Shown here one piece after another: positions 9,910-21,151 of a DNA stretch of 64,000 nucleotides (position 1 is the first letter of the stretch; each line of letters starts with the position of its first letter). Below the pieces are notes generated by a model. It ran no database searches. It saw nothing but the letters and a program-made list of their open reading frames with translations, and was not told the DNA's origin. The position numbers and the translations under genes are program-made. Where the stretch lies: the sequence record NC_025447.1; one strand, given 5' to 3'. The stretch is from Escherichia phage 121Q.

Positions 9910-10596
9910 ATGGCTACAATGCTTGATCGATATGGCGTACCGCTCGCTGGCGGTGGTCGTATCTCTATGAAACAACCAAAAGCAAAATACAAATTTCGTG
10001 TTATTTTCTTTGGTTTTGGTACTAATGATGATGGTAATATGATTACACTAGACACCAATACAGTTGGGGCAGTATCTGTATCACATGAAAATGTTACTGT
10101 TCATAGTTACAACAGTTCTGCACACTATAAAGGTAAGTACACTTGGGATACAATTGATGTTGCTTTCCGTGACTCAGTAGGTAATGCTTCTGCTAAAGCA
10201 CTATACAACCAAATGCGTAAAGAATTCAACTACTACAGTCAAGAATCTCGCATGACAGATTCACAATTTAAATTTGAAATGTGGATTCAAGAGCTTGATG
10301 GTTCTAATAGTGAAAATACAACAAACTTGTTTGAAGGAACATTGAGTACTTGGGTATGTCAAGGTTGCTTTATTGAATCCAGCAACTTTGGTGATTGGGA
10401 TTATTCCTCAAGTGAAGCACAAGTTATTTCAATGACTGTTCAACCAGATGGTTGTGCTAAATTGGGTCCAAATGGCGAAGCGTTCGGTGATGAAGTTAGT
10501 GGCTTCGGTAATCCATCAACTGCTACCTCTATTTCTGGTGCACAAACTAATATTAGTAGTACTACTCTACCAGATAGTAACTTCTACGAAAATTAA
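9910..10596 (+). CDS. tail tube-family protein (gp19-like), paralog 1
   Basis: Follows sheath gene; N-terminal RYGVPLAGGGRISMKQPKAKYKFRVIF and FRDSVGNASAKAL shared with next ORF. Confidence 0.5.
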   Translation: MATMLDRYGVPLAGGGRISMKQPKAKYKFRVIFFGFGTNDDGNMITLDTNTVGAVSVSHENVTVHSYNSSAHYKGKYTWDTIDVAFRDSVGNASAKALYNQMRKEFNYYSQESRMTDSQFKFEMWIQELDGSNSENTTNLFEGTLSTWVCQGCFIESSNFGDWDYSSSEAQVISMTVQPDGCAKLGPNGEAFGDEVSGFGNPSTATSISGAQTNISSTTLPDSNFYEN

Positions 10597-10617
10597 TTTT
10601 ATTTAAACTTAATATAT

Positions 10618-10647
10618 AGCCTCGAATCTATTCGGGGCTTTTTTTAT
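10618..10647 (+). terminator. rho-independent terminator after tube gene
   Basis: AGCCTCGAA-tcta-TTCGGGGCT then TTTTTTT. Confidence 0.6.
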
Positions 10648-10690
10648 GCTAAATAAAGTATAATGCCTTATAAAATAAAAAGAGGTTGCT

Positions 10691-11467
10691 ATGGCAAATA
10701 ACATGATTAATAAATATGGCGTTCCTTTACCATCGGGGCGTAATCGTTCAATGCTACAACCGAAAGCAAAATACAAGTTTCGTGTTATTGTGTATAATTT
10801 CGGTACTGATATAGATGAACGTGATCACATCGCATTAGATGTTGATAAAATTGATAGACCTACTGTAACATTTAGTACTCATAAACTATATCAATTTACT
10901 ACTAATACTTCCTATATAGGTAGTCATGATTGGGAACCAATTACAATATCTATCCGTGATTCAGTTGGTAATGCATCAGCAAAAGCATTATCACGACAAT
11001 TACAAAAACAACTTGACTTTCAACGTAGAATAACTTCCAGAAATGACCAAGATTATGGTTCTTATAAATTTGGTTTGGTTATACAGATGTTGAGTGGACG
11101 TAACTCAGATGATACACTAGGAAATCTAGGAAGAGATACTCTAGTAGATGCTGCAACTGCTGCAACAAATAATTCTGGCTTAGTAAATGCAGTAGATCAA
11201 TTTATTGGTGGTTCTTCATATAACAGTGCTGGTGTTATGGAATACTTTGTTTTAACCGGATGTGTTATTCAAAACATATCATACGATTCATTAGATTATA
11301 GCTCAAGTTCTCCAGTTGAAATGGTAGTTACTATCAAACCAGATAATTGTATACAATTTGATAATATTGAAGAAATGTATAGTACCAGAATTAATTCACT
11401 TTTACCTGAAAATGTCAATCAAGGTTTAGATATCATTGATCGTGTTTTTGGTAGTGTAGGATTTTAA
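10691..11467 (+). CDS. tail tube-family protein, paralog 2
   Basis: Shares KYGVPL..QPKAKYKFRVI and IRDSVGNASAKAL with 9910-10596. Confidence 0.5.
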   Translation: MANNMINKYGVPLPSGRNRSMLQPKAKYKFRVIVYNFGTDIDERDHIALDVDKIDRPTVTFSTHKLYQFTTNTSYIGSHDWEPITISIRDSVGNASAKALSRQLQKQLDFQRRITSRNDQDYGSYKFGLVIQMLSGRNSDDTLGNLGRDTLVDAATAATNNSGLVNAVDQFIGGSSYNSAGVMEYFVLTGCVIQNISYDSLDYSSSSPVEMVVTIKPDNCIQFDNIEEMYSTRINSLLPENVNQGLDIIDRVFGSVGF

Positions 11468-11478
11468 GGAGATAATGA

Positions 11479-13586
<2,108 letters not shown>

Positions 13587-13613
13587 CTTAAACGACCTTA
13601 TGGAGTTATTAAA

Positions 13614-14150
13614 ATGAATAGATTACAACAAATCCTAACTGAAAAGAAACCAGTTTATGAATACCGAGTTAAGTTTGCAGTTGAACCAACACCTGAGCAA
13701 CTTAGTAAAGTAACACAGCGACTAATGGATCGCTATGATGCGTTTGAAATTGGAGCACTAAAGAAAACAATTTTTATGGAAAAACCATTAGATTTCTATG
13801 AATTAGATTGTGGTGAAATTTGGATGTTTGACTTTAAATGTCATCGTGGCGTTCAATCAAATGTACTAATGTATGAAATTGGCAATTTACTAAGCATGAC
13901 AGAAGCATTGATTCGTGTTCGTAGTAAAGATGAACCTCGTCAAATTGAAATGACTGATTTGGAAGATGATATCGATTTTGATGATGTTGATGAACCAGTT
14001 ATTGGAGTGGATTTTGGTAAACCAGAAGACAGTTATGACTTAGCTGGACAACAACGTGCAAACACTGCCGTTGATGATGCAATTGAAGCATCGAAAAAAG
14101 ACAATAAATACTCTCAATATATGAGTGCTGGTTTTGGTAAAAAGGATTAA
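13614..14150 (+). CDS. hypothetical protein
   Basis: ORF with GGAG RBS. Confidence 0.5.
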   Translation: MNRLQQILTEKKPVYEYRVKFAVEPTPEQLSKVTQRLMDRYDAFEIGALKKTIFMEKPLDFYELDCGEIWMFDFKCHRGVQSNVLMYEIGNLLSMTEALIRVRSKDEPRQIEMTDLEDDIDFDDVDEPVIGVDFGKPEDSYDLAGQQRANTAVDDAIEASKKDNKYSQYMSAGFGKKD

Positions 14151-14153
14151 CAC

Positions 14154-14696
14154 ATGAGTATACTTAATGAAATGTTAGATTATGAAGACAATGAGTTAAA
14201 TGAAGCTCGTCCTTATAGTCGTTCACAAAGTGCAGTTGATAGTGCAAAAGGAAAAGTAAAAGGCTTTTTTGGTAGTGGACAGATTGAACAAGGTGCACAA
14301 GAAGTTGGTGCTGAAGCCAACCGCTTATGGGCAGAGTTTAAACGTTATGTTGGACGTAAATATGGTAAAGCTCAACCATCAGTACCTTACGCTGATGTGG
14401 CACAGTTTTTTAAAGGTAACAATCTTGATATTAAACATTTAGGGAACAATCCTCGTCGTTCTTTTACACCAAAAGATGTAGGTACTGCTCTATTAAATGC
14501 TGCTCGTGATATAATGAATGACTACCGTGACCAACAAGGTGGCGAAGAAAGTTCAGAATCACAACCATCACAATCGACCTCAACTGAGCAACCAGCACAA
14601 CAAGAACAACCAAAAGCACAAGGTTCCAGTATCCCTGATGCTCTACAAAAATTAAGTCCAGAGCAACGCGACCAACTGTTACGTATGCTTTCTTAA
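14154..14696 (+). CDS. hypothetical protein with Q/S/E-rich low-complexity C-terminus
   Basis: ORF with AAGGA RBS. Confidence 0.5.
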   Translation: MSILNEMLDYEDNELNEARPYSRSQSAVDSAKGKVKGFFGSGQIEQGAQEVGAEANRLWAEFKRYVGRKYGKAQPSVPYADVAQFFKGNNLDIKHLGNNPRRSFTPKDVGTALLNAARDIMNDYRDQQGGEESSESQPSQSTSTEQPAQQEQPKAQGSSIPDALQKLSPEQRDQLLRMLS

Positions 14697-14709
14697 GGAG
14701 AATCAACAC

Positions 14710-16227
14710 ATGGATAATTTTTTCAGTACTGAAACTACCACAGTTCCTAATGGATATGTATATACGTCACATACTGGTGCAAAATATGTATTTCTTGAAG
14801 GATTCTGGTTCAATGACAATAATATGTTAATGGTAGACCCTAGAAAATACCCATCCATGTACGCAAGTGCTCGACAACAGATTGTCGAGCACAATCTAGC
14901 TTCAAATGAATATAAGATTGGTAACAAATATATTGTTGAAGGTAAAGAGTGTACATTTATTGGTGAAAACCGTTTCAATTCAAAAGATGGAATTCTATTA
15001 ACTGAAAGTGAATTCATCACTGAATTAATGGCAGATGATCATCGAGTATATAATGTTTCTAAAGAAACACTACAAAAAGAATGGAATGCATTAAAATTTT
15101 ACATTCTTCCACCATATGCTGATGATATATCAATTCCAGCAGGTATGGAAGTAAGTGGTTTTAAATTTGTGCCAAAGAATCACCGTTTTGTTGATATGAA
15201 ATCAGGACGAGCAGTTGATCCAGCAATGACCCGTAAACTATCAGATGAAGGTATGCGTATTGCTCGTCAGTTAGCTTCTAAAAATAAACTAATTCCAATC
15301 AAATCAACCTTAGTTCAAGGCAATACACGTTGTGAGTGGAATGGTAAAGAATTTTGTGATAATGATGGTAATGTAGTAATTCCAGAACAAAATGCACATG
15401 CAATTATTAATGCATATCAGCAATTTGTTAAGAATAACCCAAGTGATTTTCCTACATTAACGGGTGAACAAGAACATAGTGAGCAACGTTTTGGTTCAGG
15501 TGAAAAGCCACATAAAGCTTCACACCCTGCTAAACAGCCAGTATTTGCAACTAAAGAATCAATTAATGAAGCAGATGAAGAAATTGAAGAATTTGAAAGC
15601 ATTACTGTTCCTGACGGTTATAGAATGACTTCTTCTAAAGGAAAAACATACGCTAAGAAAAATAACTTGTGGTATGATATCGAAAGTAAAAAGCAACTTA
15701 ACACAAGTGCTTCTAAAAGTGTTGAACGAGCAGCACAGCGTGATATTTTCCGTCATAACAATTCCGGTGCTATGAAAATCGGTACAAAAGTTAAATCCAA
15801 ACAAGGCAAAGAATATTCGTATGTTGGTGGTGACAGATTCATTAGTGCTGATGGTAAGTTTATACCAAAAGCAACTGCTGCTAAATTACTTGCCAAATAT
15901 GAACAAGATAAAGAAGTTAAAAGTGATGAAACACCTGAAGTAGACTCTGGTACTGAGCAAATTCAATCAAAAGAAGAACCTAAGAAAGAACCAGAATCTG
16001 AACAAAAACCAGACGAAGTTTCTGAACCAGAAACTAAATCTGAAACAATTGCTGGTGATGATGTACAATCATTAGCTTCTAAAATTAAAGAGTCACCTTA
16101 TGCTAAAAAAATCACAGTACTACTAACTCGTGGTGATGAGGTTTCTCTACTTGCTGCTGACATTTTACTTTCAGGTAAAAAGGATGAAACAGTGCAAATT
16201 TTAAAATCATTAAATAATAATGATTGA
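14710..16227 (+). CDS. hypothetical protein with internal domain duplication
   Basis: ORF with AGGAG RBS; residues ~10-100 and ~300-395 share VP(N/D)GY..TS..G..Y and KIG.K....GKE..(F/Y)(I/V)G..RF patterns. Confidence 0.5.
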   Translation: MDNFFSTETTTVPNGYVYTSHTGAKYVFLEGFWFNDNNMLMVDPRKYPSMYASARQQIVEHNLASNEYKIGNKYIVEGKECTFIGENRFNSKDGILLTESEFITELMADDHRVYNVSKETLQKEWNALKFYILPPYADDISIPAGMEVSGFKFVPKNHRFVDMKSGRAVDPAMTRKLSDEGMRIARQLASKNKLIPIKSTLVQGNTRCEWNGKEFCDNDGNVVIPEQNAHAIINAYQQFVKNNPSDFPTLTGEQEHSEQRFGSGEKPHKASHPAKQPVFATKESINEADEEIEEFESITVPDGYRMTSSKGKTYAKKNNLWYDIESKKQLNTSASKSVERAAQRDIFRHNNSGAMKIGTKVKSKQGKEYSYVGGDRFISADGKFIPKATAAKLLAKYEQDKEVKSDETPEVDSGTEQIQSKEEPKKEPESEQKPDEVSEPETKSETIAGDDVQSLASKIKESPYAKKITVLLTRGDEVSLLAADILLSGKKDETVQILKSLNNND

Positions 16228-16249
16228 TAACTAAAAGGATTTATTTAAA

Positions 16250-17230
16250 ATGGCTAAAAAAATTAATGAAGCACAAGTTAAAATCGATATCGCAGGTTTA
16301 GAATCTGATGATTTGGAAACTCTATCACGTATGTTAGCTCTTGCTGGTCAAGCTGAACGTCAAGACCCAGTAGTTGCCGCTCCAGTACCATCTATGGGGT
16401 CTATGACTCCATCTCTTCCACCTATTGCTCCACTAGATCTCGATTCTATTGGTGCTGAAGAAGAAATTGGTGGAATTGAAACTTCAGTTGAAGACCCACT
16501 AGCAGCGGCAGTTGATGATCTTTCCGCTGATGTTGGTGATTTTGGTGCTGACACAGATGAAGTTAGTATGGATGCTGAATTTTCAGAACCAGGTGTAGAA
16601 GGTGAAGAAGATTTTTCTCTTGACCTTAGTGGTCAACCTCAACTAGAATCAGTTGAAGAAGACGATGAGGAAGAAGAAGAAATTATTGAAGAAGAATTCG
16701 ATTTTAGTCGTATGCTATCTCTTGCTGGTATTAACGAAGAAGAAGACGAAGATTTTTCAGTAGAGGGTAATCCTGCTACCGATAAAGAAATGAAAGATAC
16801 CCAATTTCTACCAGATCTAAGTATCTCTGAAGATGAAGAACCATCTAACAGTACTGATTATGGTCCATATGATACAGAAGCTGATGCCGTTCGTGATGGT
16901 CAACTAAAGACTAATGGTGTTGAAGGTGACCATTTTGTTGTAATTGCAAAAGGCAATCAATTTTATTGGAGACGTGTTGTAGATGAAGATCTTGACAATC
17001 GTCCAGAACCTGAGTATTATGATAATGAAGGGAACGAAAATCGTGTTCATAAATTTGAACCAAAATTCCCAGGCACTGCATTAGGAGATAACCCACTAAA
17101 TGTTAATGAAAGTGAAGAAGATGATTCACCTGAAGGTAACATTGACTTGGAAGATGATTCTGATGAAGAAGTAGAAGATATTTTTGAAAGTCTCCAAGAA
17201 AAATACAAGAAATTTTTAGGAGACAAATAA
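16250..17230 (+). CDS. highly acidic low-complexity protein
   Basis: Long Asp/Glu runs (DDEEEEEIIEEEFDF); AAGGA RBS. Confidence 0.5.
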   Translation: MAKKINEAQVKIDIAGLESDDLETLSRMLALAGQAERQDPVVAAPVPSMGSMTPSLPPIAPLDLDSIGAEEEIGGIETSVEDPLAAAVDDLSADVGDFGADTDEVSMDAEFSEPGVEGEEDFSLDLSGQPQLESVEEDDEEEEEIIEEEFDFSRMLSLAGINEEEDEDFSVEGNPATDKEMKDTQFLPDLSISEDEEPSNSTDYGPYDTEADAVRDGQLKTNGVEGDHFVVIAKGNQFYWRRVVDEDLDNRPEPEYYDNEGNENRVHKFEPKFPGTALGDNPLNVNESEEDDSPEGNIDLEDDSDEEVEDIFESLQEKYKKFLGDK

Positions 17231-17231
17231 T

Positions 17232-17627
17232 ATGCAATATAATTATCGTGAACTAGTTGAAGCGTTAGACGAAATTACCGGAAGAGATGAAGACGAAAGT
17301 TTTTCAGTTGAAGTTGAATCCGATGTTGTAGCAGTTGATGTTCTTAAGGATATTACCAAATGTCTTATTGATATTGTTGATAAGATTAAATCTGGTGAAG
17401 ACCAAAAAGAAATTGTAGATAAACTACAAAAAGCCTGTGACATTTTGTCTGACATTCGATATAATGATGAAAGTACTGAAGTTGCTGATGAAGAAGTGTT
17501 GGAAGCCATTGCAGGTTGTTTTGGAACTGAAGGTATGGGACCAACAATTGACAAAGAAGGCGTACAACACTATAATGAGCCTGGTGCACCATCATATGCT
17601 GCACGTCAAGGTTTTGTTGGAGACTAA
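17232..17627 (+). CDS. acidic hypothetical protein
   Basis: ORF with AGGAG RBS, tightly coupled to upstream gene. Confidence 0.5.
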   Translation: MQYNYRELVEALDEITGRDEDESFSVEVESDVVAVDVLKDITKCLIDIVDKIKSGEDQKEIVDKLQKACDILSDIRYNDESTEVADEEVLEAIAGCFGTEGMGPTIDKEGVQHYNEPGAPSYAARQGFVGD

Positions 17628-17630
17628 TAT

Positions 17631-18011
17631 ATGTTTCCAGAACCATCACATAACAGTACTGAATATCAAAATAATGTACTTTCCAAAGTTAGGGAAGTAC
17701 ATGAATCAGATTCAGAAATAACAGACCGTATGCTTCTGATGTCAATTTTTGAAAATTTCAGAACTGGCGGTGGTTTACGTCTTAGCAAGTTTGGGTATGG
17801 AATTTGTAAAGAAAATAATCTTTATGAATTTACAAAAATCCCCTTGCAAAGAGAATTTAAAAGTTCTATAATGTTTACATCACTTGACAGAATATGTACT
17901 TCACCTTATTATGTTGAAGGTCAGTACATATATCTGACAGATGCAATGATAATAACTGAATTAACATTGTGTTGTGACGATTTTAAACAGTTATTTTCTA
18001 TTCATATGTAA
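17631..18011 (+). CDS. hypothetical protein
   Basis: ORF with GGAG RBS. Confidence 0.45.
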   Translation: MFPEPSHNSTEYQNNVLSKVREVHESDSEITDRMLLMSIFENFRTGGGLRLSKFGYGICKENNLYEFTKIPLQREFKSSIMFTSLDRICTSPYYVEGQYIYLTDAMIITELTLCCDDFKQLFSIHM

Positions 18012-18035
18012 GAAAAAATGAATTAAAAATAAATG

Positions 18036-18063
18036 TTGACAAGATAGAATGATGTGATACAAT
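18036..18063 (+). promoter_or_regulatory. putative sigma70-type promoter P1 (TTGACA-N16-TACAAT)
   Basis: TTGACA at 18036-18041, TGtgaTACAAT ending 18063. Confidence 0.5.
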
Positions 18064-18128
18064 AAGCATCAGACATAAAGTTTTCAAGCGACACAAGATG
18101 TGAGTTTGAAAAAAAAAGAAAAAAAGTG

Positions 18129-18156
18129 ATTGACAAGTTGAAACGATGTGATATAA
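18129..18156 (+). promoter_or_regulatory. putative sigma70-type promoter P2 (TTGACA-N16-TATAAT, consensus boxes)
   Basis: TTGACA 18129-18134, 16-nt spacer, TGaTATAAT ending 18156. Confidence 0.55.
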
Positions 18157-18218
18157 TGTTCACATCAAGACAGCAAAGAGATTTACCTTTTAAACACACG
18201 GATGATTCATGAAGTAAC

Positions 18219-18266
18219 AAAGGAACTGATAAGTTAAATTATTTTAACACAGTTCCTTTACTTTTG
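18219..18266 (+). promoter_or_regulatory. stem-loop in 5' leader of MoxR gene (10-bp stem AAAGGAACTG/CAGTTCCTTT, 21-nt loop)
   Basis: Perfect inverted repeat 18219-18228 / 18250-18259; weak T-tract after. Confidence 0.3.
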
Positions 18267-18326
18267 CCCACGGATTGGCTATAATAGAAACTTAAACGAT
18301 TTTATCCAACAAAAGGAAATATATAC

Positions 18327-19652
18327 ATGACTACTCAAAACGATATCCTGAACGTTAAACTGACTCCAAAGAAAGCTAAAGAAGCAATGGCACTAGCTGA
18401 CATGATTCAAGATAGCCTGATGATTTGGGGTAGCCCAGGTATCGGTAAGTCTGCAATCGCTCGTCAATACGCTGATGAAAATTACCCACTGCGTAAAGAT
18501 AACGTAGCTAAAATCGAGTTCATGAAACAACAAATCGAAGCTGACCCTGAAAATGCTGATCAGCTACGCCGTGAACTGGCTGCATTTGAAGCAAAACTAA
18601 TCGACCAAGATACTAACTTTATCGATTTCCGTTTGTCTCAAATCGAACCAAGTGACCTTCGCGGTATTCCAGTACCAGAGAAGCTTTTCCGTAAAACTGA
18701 CGGTTCTCTTCTGAAAGAATCTGAGCTTGCCGAAGCAAAAGATTATGTAGCTGAAACTGCGGTAGTATGGGCTGCACCTAAAGTTCTGAAATTGTCCGAA
18801 GATTGGAAAGGTGTTATTCTGTTTGACGAAATTAACTCTGCAATGCCTATTGTTCAGGCAGCGTCTTATCAGCTAATCCTCGACCGTTGTGTTGGTGAGA
18901 TGAAGCTACCTAAGACTGCACTGATTCTTGCAGCAGGTAACCGTGAAACTGATGGCGGTGTAACTTTCTCTCTTGCTACACCACTGCGTGACCGTATGAC
19001 TCACATTGAGATGATTCCTTATCATCAAGATTGGATTAACGATTATGCGATTGCAAAACGTTTGAACCCAGCAACTGTTGCGTTCATCAACAACACTGGT
19101 TCTAAGTACTTTAACACACTTAGTCCACAAGATCCTTCTCACAGTGGTGGTACTTCTCCACGTTCATGGGAAGCAGTAGCACGCTACGAAGATCTCAAGA
19201 AAACTAAGACAATTGATAAAGAAGTGTTCCGTGCAATGATTGCTGGTCGTGTTGGTGAAGGTGTTGCAACTGAATACATTGAGTACGTTGAGAACGTTGC
19301 TAAACTACCAGATACTATGTCTATTCTGTCTGGTGAAATCAAAGAAATCGACGCAACGCTGGATATTTCTGCGAACTACTTTATCACTCTGAACTTGGTT
19401 TATAAAATTATCGACCTGTTCAATGAGAAGCAAGAACAACGTCTACCAGTGGAAGAATGGGGTAAACTGTGTAACAACTTCATCACCTTCCTAGACCATA
19501 ACTTCTCTGCAACTCAAGCAGAACTGGCAGTACTGGCAATTCGTACCATCACGCTTCATAAGGTTGCGATTTCCATTAAAGATGTACCAGCGTTTAAAGA
19601 TTTCATCGCTAAGTACTCTGAACTTGTACGTAAAGCACGCTCTCTTGGCTAA
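18327..19652 (+). CDS. MoxR-like AAA+ ATPase
   Basis: Walker A GSPGIGKS, Walker B ILFDEIN, Arg-rich sensor region; long insertion between Walker A and B. Confidence 0.8.
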   Translation: MTTQNDILNVKLTPKKAKEAMALADMIQDSLMIWGSPGIGKSAIARQYADENYPLRKDNVAKIEFMKQQIEADPENADQLRRELAAFEAKLIDQDTNFIDFRLSQIEPSDLRGIPVPEKLFRKTDGSLLKESELAEAKDYVAETAVVWAAPKVLKLSEDWKGVILFDEINSAMPIVQAASYQLILDRCVGEMKLPKTALILAAGNRETDGGVTFSLATPLRDRMTHIEMIPYHQDWINDYAIAKRLNPATVAFINNTGSKYFNTLSPQDPSHSGGTSPRSWEAVARYEDLKKTKTIDKEVFRAMIAGRVGEGVATEYIEYVENVAKLPDTMSILSGEIKEIDATLDISANYFITLNLVYKIIDLFNEKQEQRLPVEEWGKLCNNFITFLDHNFSATQAELAVLAIRTITLHKVAISIKDVPAFKDFIAKYSELVRKARSLG

Positions 19653-19726: not shown

Positions 19727-21151
19727 ATGTCAGATAACAAATCTACTTCCAGATTCAATGAAGTATCTCCGGCACTCCAGAAAGAATGTCAAGATCGTCT
19801 GGTTCTGGCTCGTACATCTTTGATGTTAACTGCACCATTCTTTGGTGTACTCGCTTCACGTTTACGTCCAGTTCCTAATAATACATGGTGTCGTACTCTA
19901 GCAGTTGATGGTAAACATCTATTCTACAACGTAGAATTTGTAATGGGTATTCAAGACCCATCTAAAAAGAAAGAATATGAAGAAGCTATTCGTGAAAAGC
20001 ATCCTGAAGTTACAGACGAACAATTAAAAGAAATGACTGAAGGTTTGACTGATGAAAACCTTATTGCTGTAATTTGTCATGAAATTCTACACTGTGCTTA
20101 CGATCACTTCCTTCGTCGTGGTATGCGTGATCCACAACGTTATAACCGTGCAGCGGATTATGCCATTAACCAAATCATCGTTCGTGAGAAAATTGGAAAA
20201 ATCCAAAGTTCATGGTTGTATGATAAAAAATATGAAGGTATGACCGCAGAAGAGATTTACATTCTTCTTGAAGAAGAAGAACAAAAAGAAGATGGTGAAG
20301 GTGAAGGTCAACCACAAAGTGGCGGCGGTGAAGGTGAAGGTAAAAATCGCGGTACTTTTGGTGATATTAAAGATGGTAAGGGTAAACCAAAAGGTACTAC
20401 CATTGACCAGCATGACGTTCCACAAGAAGGTCAAGAAGGTGGTTCAAGTGAACAGCAAAAACGTGATTATATGGATGATTTCAAAACAGCAATGATGAAT
20501 GCTGCACGTGCAGGTGGTACACCAGCAGAAATCGCTCGTATGATTAACAACTTTAAAGAACCAAAGATTGACTGGCGTTCAAAACTTCAACGTACACTTC
20601 GTAGTTGGTTGAAGTCTGATGCAACGTATCAAAGTCCTTCTCGTCGTTCATGGGGTGCTGGTTTTGGTTCTAATGGTTCATTCTATGGTAATCCAATTTA
20701 CCCAGGGATGAAACCAGATGATGATATTGATATTGCGATTGCACTAGATGCTTCTGGGTCTATTTCTGAAGATATGCTTCGTGATTTCATTAGTGAAGTT
20801 CTTGGCATCACTAAACAATTCAAACAGTTTAAGATTCGTATCATGACTTTTGATACTGAAGTTTATACTGTAAAGGATTACAAAACTGGCGAAGAACGTA
20901 AGATTCTGGAATATCCAGTAAAAGGTGGTGGTGGTACTGACTTTGAAGCAGTATGGGTTCATATGAAGAACGACAACTACAAGCCTAAACAGCTTGTAAT
21001 GTTTACTGATGGTGAACCGTGGCAGTCATGGGGTGATCCAAACTACTGTAAAACACTGTTCGTGATTCACAGTAACCCAAATAAAGTTGCACCATTTGGT
21101 GAGACTGTACACTACGAATATGAAGCTGATAAAAAGCGTCAACGTAGTTAA
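19727..21151 (+). CDS. metallopeptidase-like (HExxH) / von Willebrand factor A domain protein, partner of the MoxR ATPase
   Basis: HEILH motif near residue 119; Gly/Glu-rich linker; C-terminal MIDAS-like DASGS ... MFTDGEP typical of VWA domains. Confidence 0.75.
   Translation: MSDNKSTSRFNEVSPALQKECQDRLVLARTSLMLTAPFFGVLASRLRPVPNNTWCRTLAVDGKHLFYNVEFVMGIQDPSKKKEYEEAIREKHPEVTDEQLKEMTEGLTDENLIAVICHEILHCAYDHFLRRGMRDPQRYNRAADYAINQIIVREKIGKIQSSWLYDKKYEGMTAEEIYILLEEEEQKEDGEGEGQPQSGGGEGEGKNRGTFGDIKDGKGKPKGTTIDQHDVPQEGQEGGSSEQQKRDYMDDFKTAMMNAARAGGTPAEIARMINNFKEPKIDWRSKLQRTLRSWLKSDATYQSPSRRSWGAGFGSNGSFYGNPIYPGMKPDDDIDIAIALDASGSISEDMLRDFISEVLGITKQFKQFKIRIMTFDTEVYTVKDYKTGEERKILEYPVKGGGGTDFEAVWVHMKNDNYKPKQLVMFTDGEPWQSWGDPNYCKTLFVIHSNPNKVAPFGETVHYEYEADKKRQRS

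What the first reader, a model, noticed from the sequence alone, without database searches (positions are those of the whole stretch)
16250..17627. Two consecutive highly acidic proteins
The 326-aa and 131-aa products are dominated by Asp/Glu runs (for example DDEEEEEIIEEEFDFS). In phages such proteins are often DNA mimics (anti-restriction, Ocr-like), scaffold or internal-core proteins. Their position in an operon of unknowns between the tube genes and the MoxR module leaves both options open.
Basis: inference. Interest (0 to 1): 0.4.

Follow-up and report, generated by a model that had tools for sequence, protein, structure and literature searches.

The report
Two acidic jumbo-phage virion proteins
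Two neighbouring, extremely acidic genes of a 121Q/RaK2-type jumbo coliphage encode conserved late proteins that others have already detected in purified phage particles; the larger one is mostly a disordered negatively charged chain carrying short conserved docking motifs, and nothing supports an Ocr-like DNA-mimic fold.

The parts
16210..16217 (+). T4-late-type promoter element TTAAATAA, 40 nt upstream of the ORF A start codon, inside the last codons of the 505-aa gene
   Evidence: The motif [ACT]TAAATAA occurs 12 times on the + strand, and 9 of these lie 35-57 nt upstream of a start codon. TCATTAAATAAT at -35 to -40 is conserved in Ecwhy_1, Turkey5, ph0011, RaK2, CBB and BF. Promoter function is inferred, not measured.
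16250..17230 (+). ORF A: 326-aa acidic virion protein (phrog_15988; PBECO4 gp013, phAPEC6 gp267c, RaK2 gp050, CBB_213)
   Evidence: virion MS
16250..16357 (+). A residues 1-36: conserved N-terminal module with amphipathic helix 19-36 (LSRMLALAGQAE), motif copy 1
   Evidence: Median 75% identity across homologs. Helix in the AF2 model. Invariant columns. The phAPEC6 MS peptide maps to residues 12-27.
16358..16699 (+). A residues 37-150: acidic disordered linker 1 (net -36)
   Evidence: pLDDT below 50. 28% identity but 28% D/E conserved, length 36-132 in homologs. It forms a single 117-residue tryptic peptide that is invisible to MS.
16700..16738 (+). A residues 151-163: motif copy 2 (FDFSRMLSLAGI), a short helix
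   Evidence: The motif pair is conserved even in distant ~500-aa and fused relatives.
16739..16846 (+). A residues 164-199: acidic linker 2 plus the conserved LPDLS(I/L)xED entry to the domain
16847..16984 (+). A residues 200-245: small beta-alpha-beta-beta domain (the only confidently folded part)
17069..17098 (+). A residues 274-283: conserved PGTALGDNPL motif
   Evidence: G279, D280 and N281 are invariant. The motif is retained as PGDNPM in distant relatives.
17099..17167 (+). A residues 284-306: acidic linker 3 (52% D/E)
17168..17227 (+). A residues 307-326: conserved C-terminal amphipathic helix
   Evidence: pLDDT about 85, 50% identity
17232..17627 (+). ORF B: 131-aa acidic protein (phrog_14971; PBECO4 gp012, phAPEC6 gp266c, RaK2 gp051, CBB_214); starts 1 nt after A's stop codon
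   Evidence: virion MS
17232..17459 (+). B residues 1-76: three-helix acidic body (helices 5-17, 29-53, 58-74); the N-terminus MQYNYRELVE|A resembles the T4 IP leader
   Evidence: (pLDDT 60-75). The leader idea was tested and mostly failed.
17520..17624 (+). B residues 97-131: conserved C-terminal peptide FGTEGMGPTIDKEGVQHYNEPGAPSYAARQGFVGD, the most widely conserved part of B
   Evidence: It is kept in distant metagenomic homologs, including a 72-aa form.
17631..18011 (+). 126-aa ORF (phrog_15638) that always follows B; not found in virions; last gene of the unit
10649..18011 (+). Terminator-free late unit: tube-like 2 and 3, head-closure (gp4/TnsA-like), 184-, 178-, 180- and 505-aa genes, A, B, 126-aa ORF
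   Evidence: No terminator lies between 10618-10639 and about 18221. Late-type motifs occur at 10649, 13579 and 16210.

Best explanation
A and B are late-expressed, co-translated, conserved core components of the virion of RaK2/121Q-type jumbo myoviruses. They are minor structural or packaged proteins, not soluble early anti-restriction factors. A is a modular, intrinsically disordered polyanion. Four or five short conserved interaction modules are strung on acidic linkers: two copies of an amphipathic 'SRMLxLAG' helix, a about 45-residue beta-alpha-beta-beta domain, a 'GDNPL' motif and a C-terminal helix. Selection keeps the negative charge of the linkers but not their sequence or length. The most likely mechanism (inferred) is that the modules dock onto structured virion partners while the linkers stay unfolded and are electrostatically excluded from DNA. 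A would then act as a flexible, DNA-repelled tether or spacer in the DNA-proximal part of the particle, meaning the head interior or the portal/head-completion region. B is a small acidic helical protein anchored through its conserved C-terminal peptide. It probably works with A, since the two are always adjacent and translationally coupled. Shown here: acidity, conservation, synteny, disorder plus motif architecture, the late-promoter motif, and virion detection by others. Inferred: location in the particle, the partners, and the spacer/tether role.
For: Identity and context: the window is 100% identical to SP27, G17 and Sharanji, and A and B fall in PHROG families labelled 'virion structural protein'. 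Virion MS: CBB_213 gave 5 peptides at 18.9% coverage and CBB_214 gave 1 peptide. RaK2 gp050 gave 1 peptide and gp051 gave 2 peptides. phAPEC6 gp267c gave 1 peptide. A cross-phage table confirms this, and G17 notes cite 121Q 'structural protein' for both. Low peptide counts are expected, because only about 31% of A is tryptic-observable. Both ends of A persist in virions. Architecture: AF2 shows 136 of 326 residues below pLDDT 50, helices at both motifs, a domain at pLDDT 89-95 and a C-terminal helix. Modules are 50-75% identical, whereas linkers are 10-28% identical yet 28-59% D/E with variable length. The motifs persist in distant relatives with different flanking parts. Core-gene behaviour: A and B are adjacent in all RaK2-like genera and in two distant metagenomic lineages with the same gene order. 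Late expression: a conserved T4-late-like element lies at -40 of A, there is no terminator within the unit, and the spacers are 1 nt (A-B) and 3 nt (B-126 aa).
Against: No experiment places either protein in the head, neck or tail. MS detection is weak: single peptides in two phages, none in GAP32, and B was not seen in phAPEC6. Sticky contaminants or assembly factors carried along are therefore not excluded. RaK2's authors labelled gp050 only 'conserved phage protein'. Packing a net -75 protein next to DNA is electrostatically costly, which may instead favour an external or neck location. The AF2 models are of low overall confidence (mean pLDDT 59 and 63). The peptide back-calculation assumes fully tryptic peptides and coverage computed on the annotated length; CBB_214 could not be matched this way.
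Confidence: 0.55

Rival explanations
1. Co-injected polyanionic decoy. A and/or B are packaged in the head and ejected with the genome. In the cell, their acidic regions mimic nucleic acid and soak up host DNA-binding defence or nucleoid proteins (type I R-M, BREX, H-NS-like). This would be functionally Ocr-like or T4-IP-like, but through disorder rather than a rigid fold.
For: The acidity is extreme and conserved. The proteins are virion-associated. T4 provides a precedent for packaged, injected anti-restriction proteins (PMC12373910). B begins MQYNYRELVE|A, the same length and Phi-x-E|A ending as the T4 IPII/IPIII leader MKTYQEFIAE|A.
Against: There is no sequence or fold link to Ocr, ArdA or any DNA mimic. 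A and B are fixed-position core genes in every genus, unlike the variable, dispensable T4 ip genes described in PMC12373910. B's leader-like N-terminus is not conserved in distant homologs and occurs only once per genome in all 34 records. T4 IPII and IPIII are basic, not acidic. phAPEC6 is reported to carry two DNA methyltransferases as protection.
Confidence: 0.12
2. Prohead scaffold or core proteins. A and B help build the T=28 prohead and are then cut by the T4-gp21-like protease and mostly expelled. MS would be picking up residual fragments, like the acidic internal peptides of T4.
For: The phage has a T4-type prohead protease, and the capsid protein is processed from 42 to about 37 kDa. 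Acidic composition and low peptide counts fit this. From my own knowledge, not tested here, T4 core proteins and their remnant peptides are acidic.
Against: Peptides from both the N-terminal module and the C-terminal domain of A are required to explain coverage in mature CBB virions. The phAPEC6 peptide spans residues 12-27, across the only N-terminal G-L-E|S candidate site. phAPEC6's putative scaffold Gp226 is numbered next to the capsid protein Gp225, about 40 genes from gp266c/gp267c. A is disordered rather than coiled-coil.
Confidence: 0.12
3. Component or organiser of the inner body. 121Q and phAPEC6 have a 91 x 18 nm axial, radiation-sensitive protein rod of unknown composition inside the DNA, and A (with B) would be part of it.
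For: The inner body is documented, and none of its proteins are identified. A and B are unassigned virion proteins of exactly these phages. A DNA-repelled polyanion would naturally segregate into a DNA-free axial zone (inference).
Against: A rod of that size needs on the order of 10-20 MDa of protein (my estimate). A yields only 1 of about 7 observable peptides in phAPEC6 and RaK2, which suggests low abundance. The phAPEC6 authors report no similarity between any phAPEC6 protein and the phiKZ inner-body proteins. The family is also present in relatives where no inner body has been reported.
Confidence: 0.1
4. Non-structural assembly factors (for head completion or head-tail joining) that co-purify with particles, so that the 'virion' calls are carry-over.
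For: The genes lie directly downstream of the gp4/TnsA-like head-closure gene. MS evidence is weak or absent in GAP32, and for B in phAPEC6. Non-structural proteins such as SSB, topoisomerase and thymidylate synthase also appear in these virion lists.
Against: The proteins were detected independently in three different phages and laboratories' preparations. The neighbouring 184-aa and 126-aa products of the same unit are never detected, so carry-over is not general for this operon.
Confidence: 0.1

Closest known systems
PHROG families phrog_15988 (A) and phrog_14971 (B): 'virion structural protein' of RaK2-like jumbo phages (PBECO4 gp013/gp012, phAPEC6 gp267c/gp266c, RaK2 gp050/gp051, CBB_213/214)
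   Same: Full-length matches with E = 1e-141 and 3e-60, 99-100% identity to the listed Asteriusvirus proteins, and the same gene order.
   Different: Nothing differs; this is the same protein pair. The families carry no mechanistic annotation.
T4 internal proteins IPI/IPII/IPIII (packaged via an N-terminal capsid-targeting leader, cleaved by gp21, injected, anti-restriction)
   Same: They are virion-associated small proteins. B's first 10 residues end in Phi-x-E followed by Ala, like MKTYQEFIAE|A. The phage has a gp21-type protease.
   Different: T4 IPII and IPIII are basic; A and B are strongly acidic. The T4 leader is shared between IPs, but B's occurs once per genome and is not conserved in distant homologs. 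PMC12373910 describes ip genes as non-essential and numerous across T-even phages, whereas A and B are core and syntenic.
T7 Ocr (gp0.3), ArdA and other DNA-mimic anti-restriction proteins
   Same: High negative charge density, and a size for B (131 aa) similar to Ocr.
   Different: There is no Pfam, PDB-sequence or fold match. A's acidic regions are disordered rather than a rigid helical phosphate mimic. The genes are late, sit in the structural operon and their products are packaged. By contrast, Ocr is, from my own knowledge, an early unpackaged gene product.
T4 prohead core/scaffold proteins (gp22, gp67, gp68) and their acidic internal peptides (comparison from my own knowledge; not tested by sequence here)
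   Same: Acidic head-assembly proteins of a T4-related capsid system whose remnants can be found in virions.
   Different: A and B are not encoded next to the protease and capsid genes. Both termini of A persist in virions. A is predicted disordered, not coiled-coil.
phiKZ inner-body proteins
   Same: The host phage type (121Q/phAPEC6) has a phiKZ-like inner body whose proteins are unknown.
   Different: The phAPEC6 authors report no sequence similarity. Apparent abundance is low. No processing data exist.

Membership tests
phrog_15988 / phrog_14971 (RaK2-like 'virion structural proteins') | Full-length profile match | tested here: met
   E = 9.8e-142 over residues 1-326 and E = 3e-60 over residues 2-131
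phrog_15988 / phrog_14971 (RaK2-like 'virion structural proteins') | Conserved position: after the gp4-like head-closure gene and 3-5 small virion genes, before the ~120-aa ORF and MoxR ATPase | tested here: met
   The same order is seen in PBECO4, phAPEC6, RaK2, CBB, BF, G17, Ecwhy_1, Turkey5 and ph0011 (the last three over the immediate neighbours only), and in two metagenomic contigs
phrog_15988 / phrog_14971 (RaK2-like 'virion structural proteins') | Presence in purified virions | not testable with these tools
   Literature only: CBB 5 and 1 peptides, RaK2 1 and 2 peptides, phAPEC6 1 and 0 peptides, GAP32 none
Ocr / ArdA DNA-mimic anti-restriction proteins | Sequence membership (Pfam Ocr or ArdA models, or a PDB homolog) | tested here: not met
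   No Pfam family for A; only a sub-threshold SapB_1 hit for B. There are no PDB sequence hits for A, and only chance helical hits for B.
Ocr / ArdA DNA-mimic anti-restriction proteins | Compact rigid fold displaying carboxylates in a B-DNA-like pattern | tested here: not met
Ocr / ArdA DNA-mimic anti-restriction proteins | Early expression, before or as the genome enters | tested here: not met
   The genes lie inside a terminator-free structural unit, with a conserved T4-late-type element at -40 of A. No transcriptome data were available, so timing is inferred.
Ocr / ArdA DNA-mimic anti-restriction proteins | Inhibition of type I R-M or BREX | not testable with these tools
   Needs biochemical or plating assays
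T4-type internal proteins (IPs) | N-terminal capsid-targeting leader shared among several packaged proteins, ending in a gp21 site (L/I-x-E) | tested here: not met
   B has L-V-E|A at residues 8-10. However, the leader occurs only once per genome in all 34 phage records, is not conserved in distant B homologs, and the loose pattern also hits unrelated proteins.
T4-type internal proteins (IPs) | Dispensable, variable accessory genes | tested here: not met
   A and B are present at a fixed position in every genus examined
T4-type scaffold/core proteins | Encoded beside the prohead protease and major capsid genes | tested here: not met
   In phAPEC6 the capsid and scaffold proteins are Gp225 and Gp226, against gp266c and gp267c here. 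In RaK2 the protease and capsid genes are ORF092 and ORF094, against ORF050 and ORF051.
T4-type scaffold/core proteins | Removed from the mature head by proteolysis | tested here: inconclusive
   Back-calculated MS peptides indicate that both ends of A persist, but internal cleavage within the MS-invisible linker cannot be excluded
phiKZ-type inner-body proteins | Sequence similarity to the phiKZ inner-body proteins | not tested
   The phAPEC6 authors report none for any phAPEC6 protein; I did not repeat the comparison.
phiKZ-type inner-body proteins | High copy number inside the DNA-filled head | not testable with these tools
   Only qualitative MS is available, and low peptide counts argue weakly against it

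The most novel reading that the evidence does not exclude
A, with B, is the unidentified protein of the 121Q/phAPEC6 inner body, or of a co-ejected protein bolus. It would be a packaged, DNA-repelled disordered polyanion that holds open an axial DNA-free channel. On infection it would leave with the genome and act as a nucleic-acid decoy for host DNA-binding defences. That would be a disorder-based DNA mimic delivered from the capsid.
Probability: 0.1. Interest if true: 0.6.

Novelty: already known. Interest (0 to 1): 0.25.

Why it matters
These two proteins are already catalogued as virion proteins of RaK2/121Q-type jumbo phages, so the finding itself is not new. What this analysis adds is a concrete anatomy: a charge-conserved disordered polyanion carrying two SRMLxLAG helices, a mini-domain, a GDNPL motif and a terminal helix, plus a small partner with a conserved C-terminal peptide. 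It also gives evidence that the proteins are late and that A is retained in particles with both ends present. That makes them reasonable, testable candidates for virion features of these phages that are still unassigned, such as the inner body, ejected proteins and the neck structure. It also removes them from the list of likely Ocr-type anti-restriction genes. The late-promoter motif recovered along the way is useful for annotating this poorly annotated phage group.

Tried and rejected
- Paralogy of A with the upstream 505-aa virion protein: BLASTP found nothing.
- T4-like capsid-targeting leader on B: the resemblance is real against the T4 record. However, it is not shared by any other gene in 34 genomes, is not conserved in distant homologs, and the loose Phi-x-E[AS] pattern also hits thymidylate synthase.
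- Cleavage of A at G-L-E18|S: E18 is replaced by Ser in distant homologs, and the phAPEC6 peptide spans the site.
- 'Hair'/whisker protein of CBB and phAPEC6: rejected, because A and B are conserved in GAP32 and RaK2, which are not reported to be hairy. The CBB authors expect the whisker genes to be absent from GAP32.
- Functional clue from extra domains in fused or distant relatives: only DUF7249 and no informative PHROG.
- Solved homologs of operon neighbours, to place the block in the head or the tail: none found.
- Structured RNA in the region: Rfam gave only chance-level hits.
- DNA tandem repeat as the source of acidity: only micro-repeats.
- Intragenic sigma70-like sites in A and B as real promoters: undecided. 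At least the one at 17437 coincides with conserved codons (C/R-D-I...Y-N), so it may be incidental.

Full report
**What is there.** ORF A (16250-17230, +, 326 aa) and ORF B (17232-17627, +, 131 aa) are real ORFs, separated by one nucleotide. A has 29% Asp+Glu against 6% Lys+Arg, net charge -75 and pI about 4.05. B has 25% Asp+Glu, net -21 and pI about 4.1. They have the highest Asp+Glu fractions of the 51 ORFs in the window. The acidity does not come from a DNA tandem repeat; only micro-repeats such as (GAA)9 are present. The Ser/Thr-rich antisense ORFs inside both genes are the expected mirror of GAx-rich codons.

**Which genome.** The region is 100% identical to Escherichia phages SP27, G17 and Sharanji. 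It is 99.4-99.9% identical to phAPEC6, PBECO4 and other Asteriusvirus jumbo coliphages of about 350 kb. In PBECO4 RefSeq the two genes are gp013 and gp012, 'virion structural protein'. In phAPEC6 they are gp267c and gp266c. PHROGs places them in phrog_15988 and phrog_14971, both labelled 'virion structural protein'. Pfam, NCBIfam and PADLOC give nothing.

| Phage | A homolog | B homolog | Source |
|---|---|---|---|
| phAPEC6 | gp267c: 1 peptide, 4.9% coverage | gp266c: not detected | PMC7247149, |
| CBB | CBB_213: 5 peptides, 18.9% | CBB_214: 1 peptide, 15.4% | PMC5259590, |
| RaK2 | gp050: 1 peptide, 5.3% | gp051: 2 peptides, 18.7% | PMC3622015 Table S3, |
| GAP32 | not detected | not detected | |

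- G17's annotation notes that both proteins match 'structural protein' of 121Q.
- Low peptide counts are expected. An in-silico digest shows that only 7 tryptic peptides of A, about 31% of the protein, are in the observable size range. The central acidic region forms a single 117-residue peptide.
- From the reported coverages, the single phAPEC6 peptide must be residues 12-27, IDIAGLESDDLETLSR.
- Every combination that reproduces the CBB_213 coverage contains both an N-terminal peptide (residues 4-38) and C-terminal-domain peptides (residues 201-261).
- So both ends of A are present in mature particles.

**Family and conservation.**
- tblastn finds A in 71 phage records and B in 61, always adjacent. 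The records cover Asteriusvirus, Alcyoneusvirus (RaK2, K64-1), Mimasvirus (CBB), Eneladusvirus (BF, Erwinia phages), Salmonella, Yersinia and Xanthomonas jumbo phages.
- The gene order is constant: sheath, three tube-like paralogs, gp4/TnsA-like head-closure gene, three to five small genes, A, B, a ~120-aa ORF, then the MoxR ATPase and a VWA/DUF2201 protein.
- The same order holds in two distant metagenomic lineages, whose A homologs are 527 and 359 aa.
- An exhaustive profile search of 1.84 billion representative proteins returns only 89 hits. The family is narrow and phage-specific.

**Architecture of A.** AlphaFold2 on a 73-sequence alignment gives mean pLDDT 59, with 136 of 326 residues below 50. 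The structured parts are:
- a helix at residues 19-36
- short helices at 83-89 and 152-158
- a beta-alpha-beta-beta domain at about 200-245 (pLDDT 89-95)
- a C-terminal helix at 308-323

The helices at 19-36 and 152-158 carry an internal repeat, LSRMLALAGQ and FSRMLSLAGI. This repeat is found nowhere else in the window. The modules are 50-75% identical across homologs. The three linkers are only 10-28% identical and vary in length (36-132, 8-26 and 2-36 residues), yet they stay 28-59% Asp/Glu. Distant relatives keep the N-terminal motif, a second LxxMLxLAG motif and PGDNP(L/M). This holds for ~500-aa forms with Asp/Gly/Met-rich linkers and for proteins with other flanking segments. This is the signature of a disordered polyanion carrying short linear docking motifs.

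**Architecture of B.** The AF2 model (mean pLDDT 63) has three helices at residues 5-17, 29-53 and 58-74, then an acidic disordered stretch and a conserved C-terminal peptide. That peptide, GMxPxxDxxGxxxYxxxxxSYAxxxGF(V/T)G, is the most widely conserved feature. It survives even in a 72-aa homolog that lacks most of the helical body.

**No link to known folds.**
- Profile searches of the PDB sequences find nothing for A and only chance helical-bundle hits for B.
- Foldseek against the PDB gives no hit better than E = 1.7 for either model.
- Operon neighbours have no solved homologs either.

**Transcription context.**
- No terminator-like site on the + strand lies between 10618-10639 and about 18221.
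- The motif [ACT]TAAATAA, close to the T4 late promoter TATAAATA, occurs 12 times on the + strand. Nine of these lie 35-57 nt upstream of a start codon, where about 0.1 would be expected by chance. They include the sheath gene, two tube-like genes, the 178-aa gene and ORF A (16210, at -40).
- The element TCATTAAATAAT at -35 to -40 of A's start codon is conserved at the nucleotide level in Ecwhy_1, Turkey5, ph0011, RaK2, CBB and BF. It is conserved even though it sits in the last codons of an upstream gene of very different length.
- A, and with it B and the 126-aa ORF, therefore looks like a late gene with its own late promoter. phAPEC6 is reported to encode its own sigma factor.
- The MoxR/VWA pair is a separate unit. 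The 316-bp spacer carries two near-identical consensus sigma70 promoters that are conserved as far as RaK2.

**Interpretation.** The Ocr-like reading fails every test that could be run: family, fold, rigidity, timing and gene behaviour. The T4 internal-protein analogy was tested against the T4 record. B's MQYNYRELVE|A does resemble MKTYQEFIAE|A. However, the leader is unique in each genome and is lost in distant homologs. T4 IPs are also basic, and PMC12373910 describes them as non-essential accessory genes. A discarded-scaffold role is disfavoured by the persistence of both ends of A. It is also disfavoured because phAPEC6's putative scaffold (Gp226) is numbered next to the capsid protein (Gp225), about 40 genes away. 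A whisker role is rejected on phylogenetic distribution.

The best-supported statement is that A and B are late, conserved, low-to-moderate-abundance virion components. A works as a DNA-repelled flexible tether or spacer that docks through its motifs, and B is a small anchored partner. Their location (head interior, portal/neck or elsewhere) is not established. 121Q and phAPEC6 have an inner body whose proteins are unknown. That makes A and B candidates, but their apparent low abundance argues against a major role.

**Verdict.** Interest is low to moderate, mainly as candidates for the unassigned internal or neck features of this phage group.

Noticed in passing
window 16992-18157 (+): Six of the twelve sites in the whole 64-kb window (both strands) that match the sigma70 consensus TTGACA-N16-18-TATAAT at 11/12 or better lie on the + strand within 1.2 kb. 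They start at 16992 (in A), 17437 and 17548 (in B), 17884 (in the 126-aa ORF), and 18036 and 18130 (in the spacer). The 17437 site is conserved as far as RaK2, but it coincides with conserved codons (C/R-D-I...Y-N), so the intragenic sites may be incidental.
   Followed up: partly
window 18012-18326: The spacer before the MoxR ATPase holds a duplicated consensus promoter unit (TTGACAAGnTnnAAnGATGTGATAyAAT at 18036-18063 and 18130-18157). It is conserved in Ecwhy_1, Turkey5, ph0011 and RaK2. It is followed by a 10-bp-stem hairpin (18221-18261, called a terminator in the G17 record) and a weaker promoter-like site at 18257-18285. This may be an early promoter array, an attenuator or a short transcript. 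One record annotates a 36-aa CDS at 18099-18209. There is no Rfam hit.
   Followed up: partly
window, + strand: 3172, 4936, 6794, 9868, 10649, 13579, 16210, 21155, 36538; - strand: 59856, 54597, 32261: The motif [ACT]TAAATAA sits at a stereotyped 13-57 nt (mostly 35-57) upstream of many start codons, mostly of structural genes. It is a candidate late-promoter consensus for Asteriusvirus and RaK2-like phages, close to T4's TATAAATA. The exact T4 octamer occurs only once in the window.
   Followed up: partly
window 18327-19652 and 19727-21151: The MoxR-type AAA+ ATPase and its partner, a DUF2201_N metallopeptidase-like plus VWA protein (N4 gp24/gp25-like), form a pair. The ATPase was detected in phAPEC6 virions with 6 peptides. 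The partner is labelled 'HNH endonuclease' in PHROGs and several records, which the Pfam domains do not support.
   Followed up: no
window 14154-14696: The 180-aa protein is labelled 'Hsp70 heat shock protein' by PHROGs and pharokka-style annotations, but it has no Pfam or NCBIfam match. Its homologs were detected in GAP32 and RaK2 virions. The label looks like a propagated mis-annotation.
   Followed up: no
window 14710-16227: By eye, the 505-aa virion protein upstream of A contains a repeated segment (VPNGYVYTSHTGAKYVFLEGFWFN... near residue 12 and VPDGYRMTSSKGKTYAKKNNLWYD... near residue 297), followed by an acidic/lysine-rich tail. Its homologs vary greatly in length (315 aa in RaK2, 331 aa in BF, split into 245 + 215 aa in a metagenomic contig).
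   Followed up: no
window 17631-18011: The 126-aa ORF (phrog_15638) is conserved directly after B in all lineages, including distant metagenomic ones, with a shared SPYY..xxIY(L/I)(T/S)D motif. It has never been detected in virions and is not annotated at all in the phAPEC6 record.
   Followed up: no
window 9910-12573: Three consecutive paralog-like genes after the sheath gene are labelled 'tail tube protein' in some records. RaK2's authors instead proposed gp106w/gp107w as the tube protein, and the 364-aa member has no solved homolog. The 'tube' label for this trio is therefore unverified.
   Followed up: no
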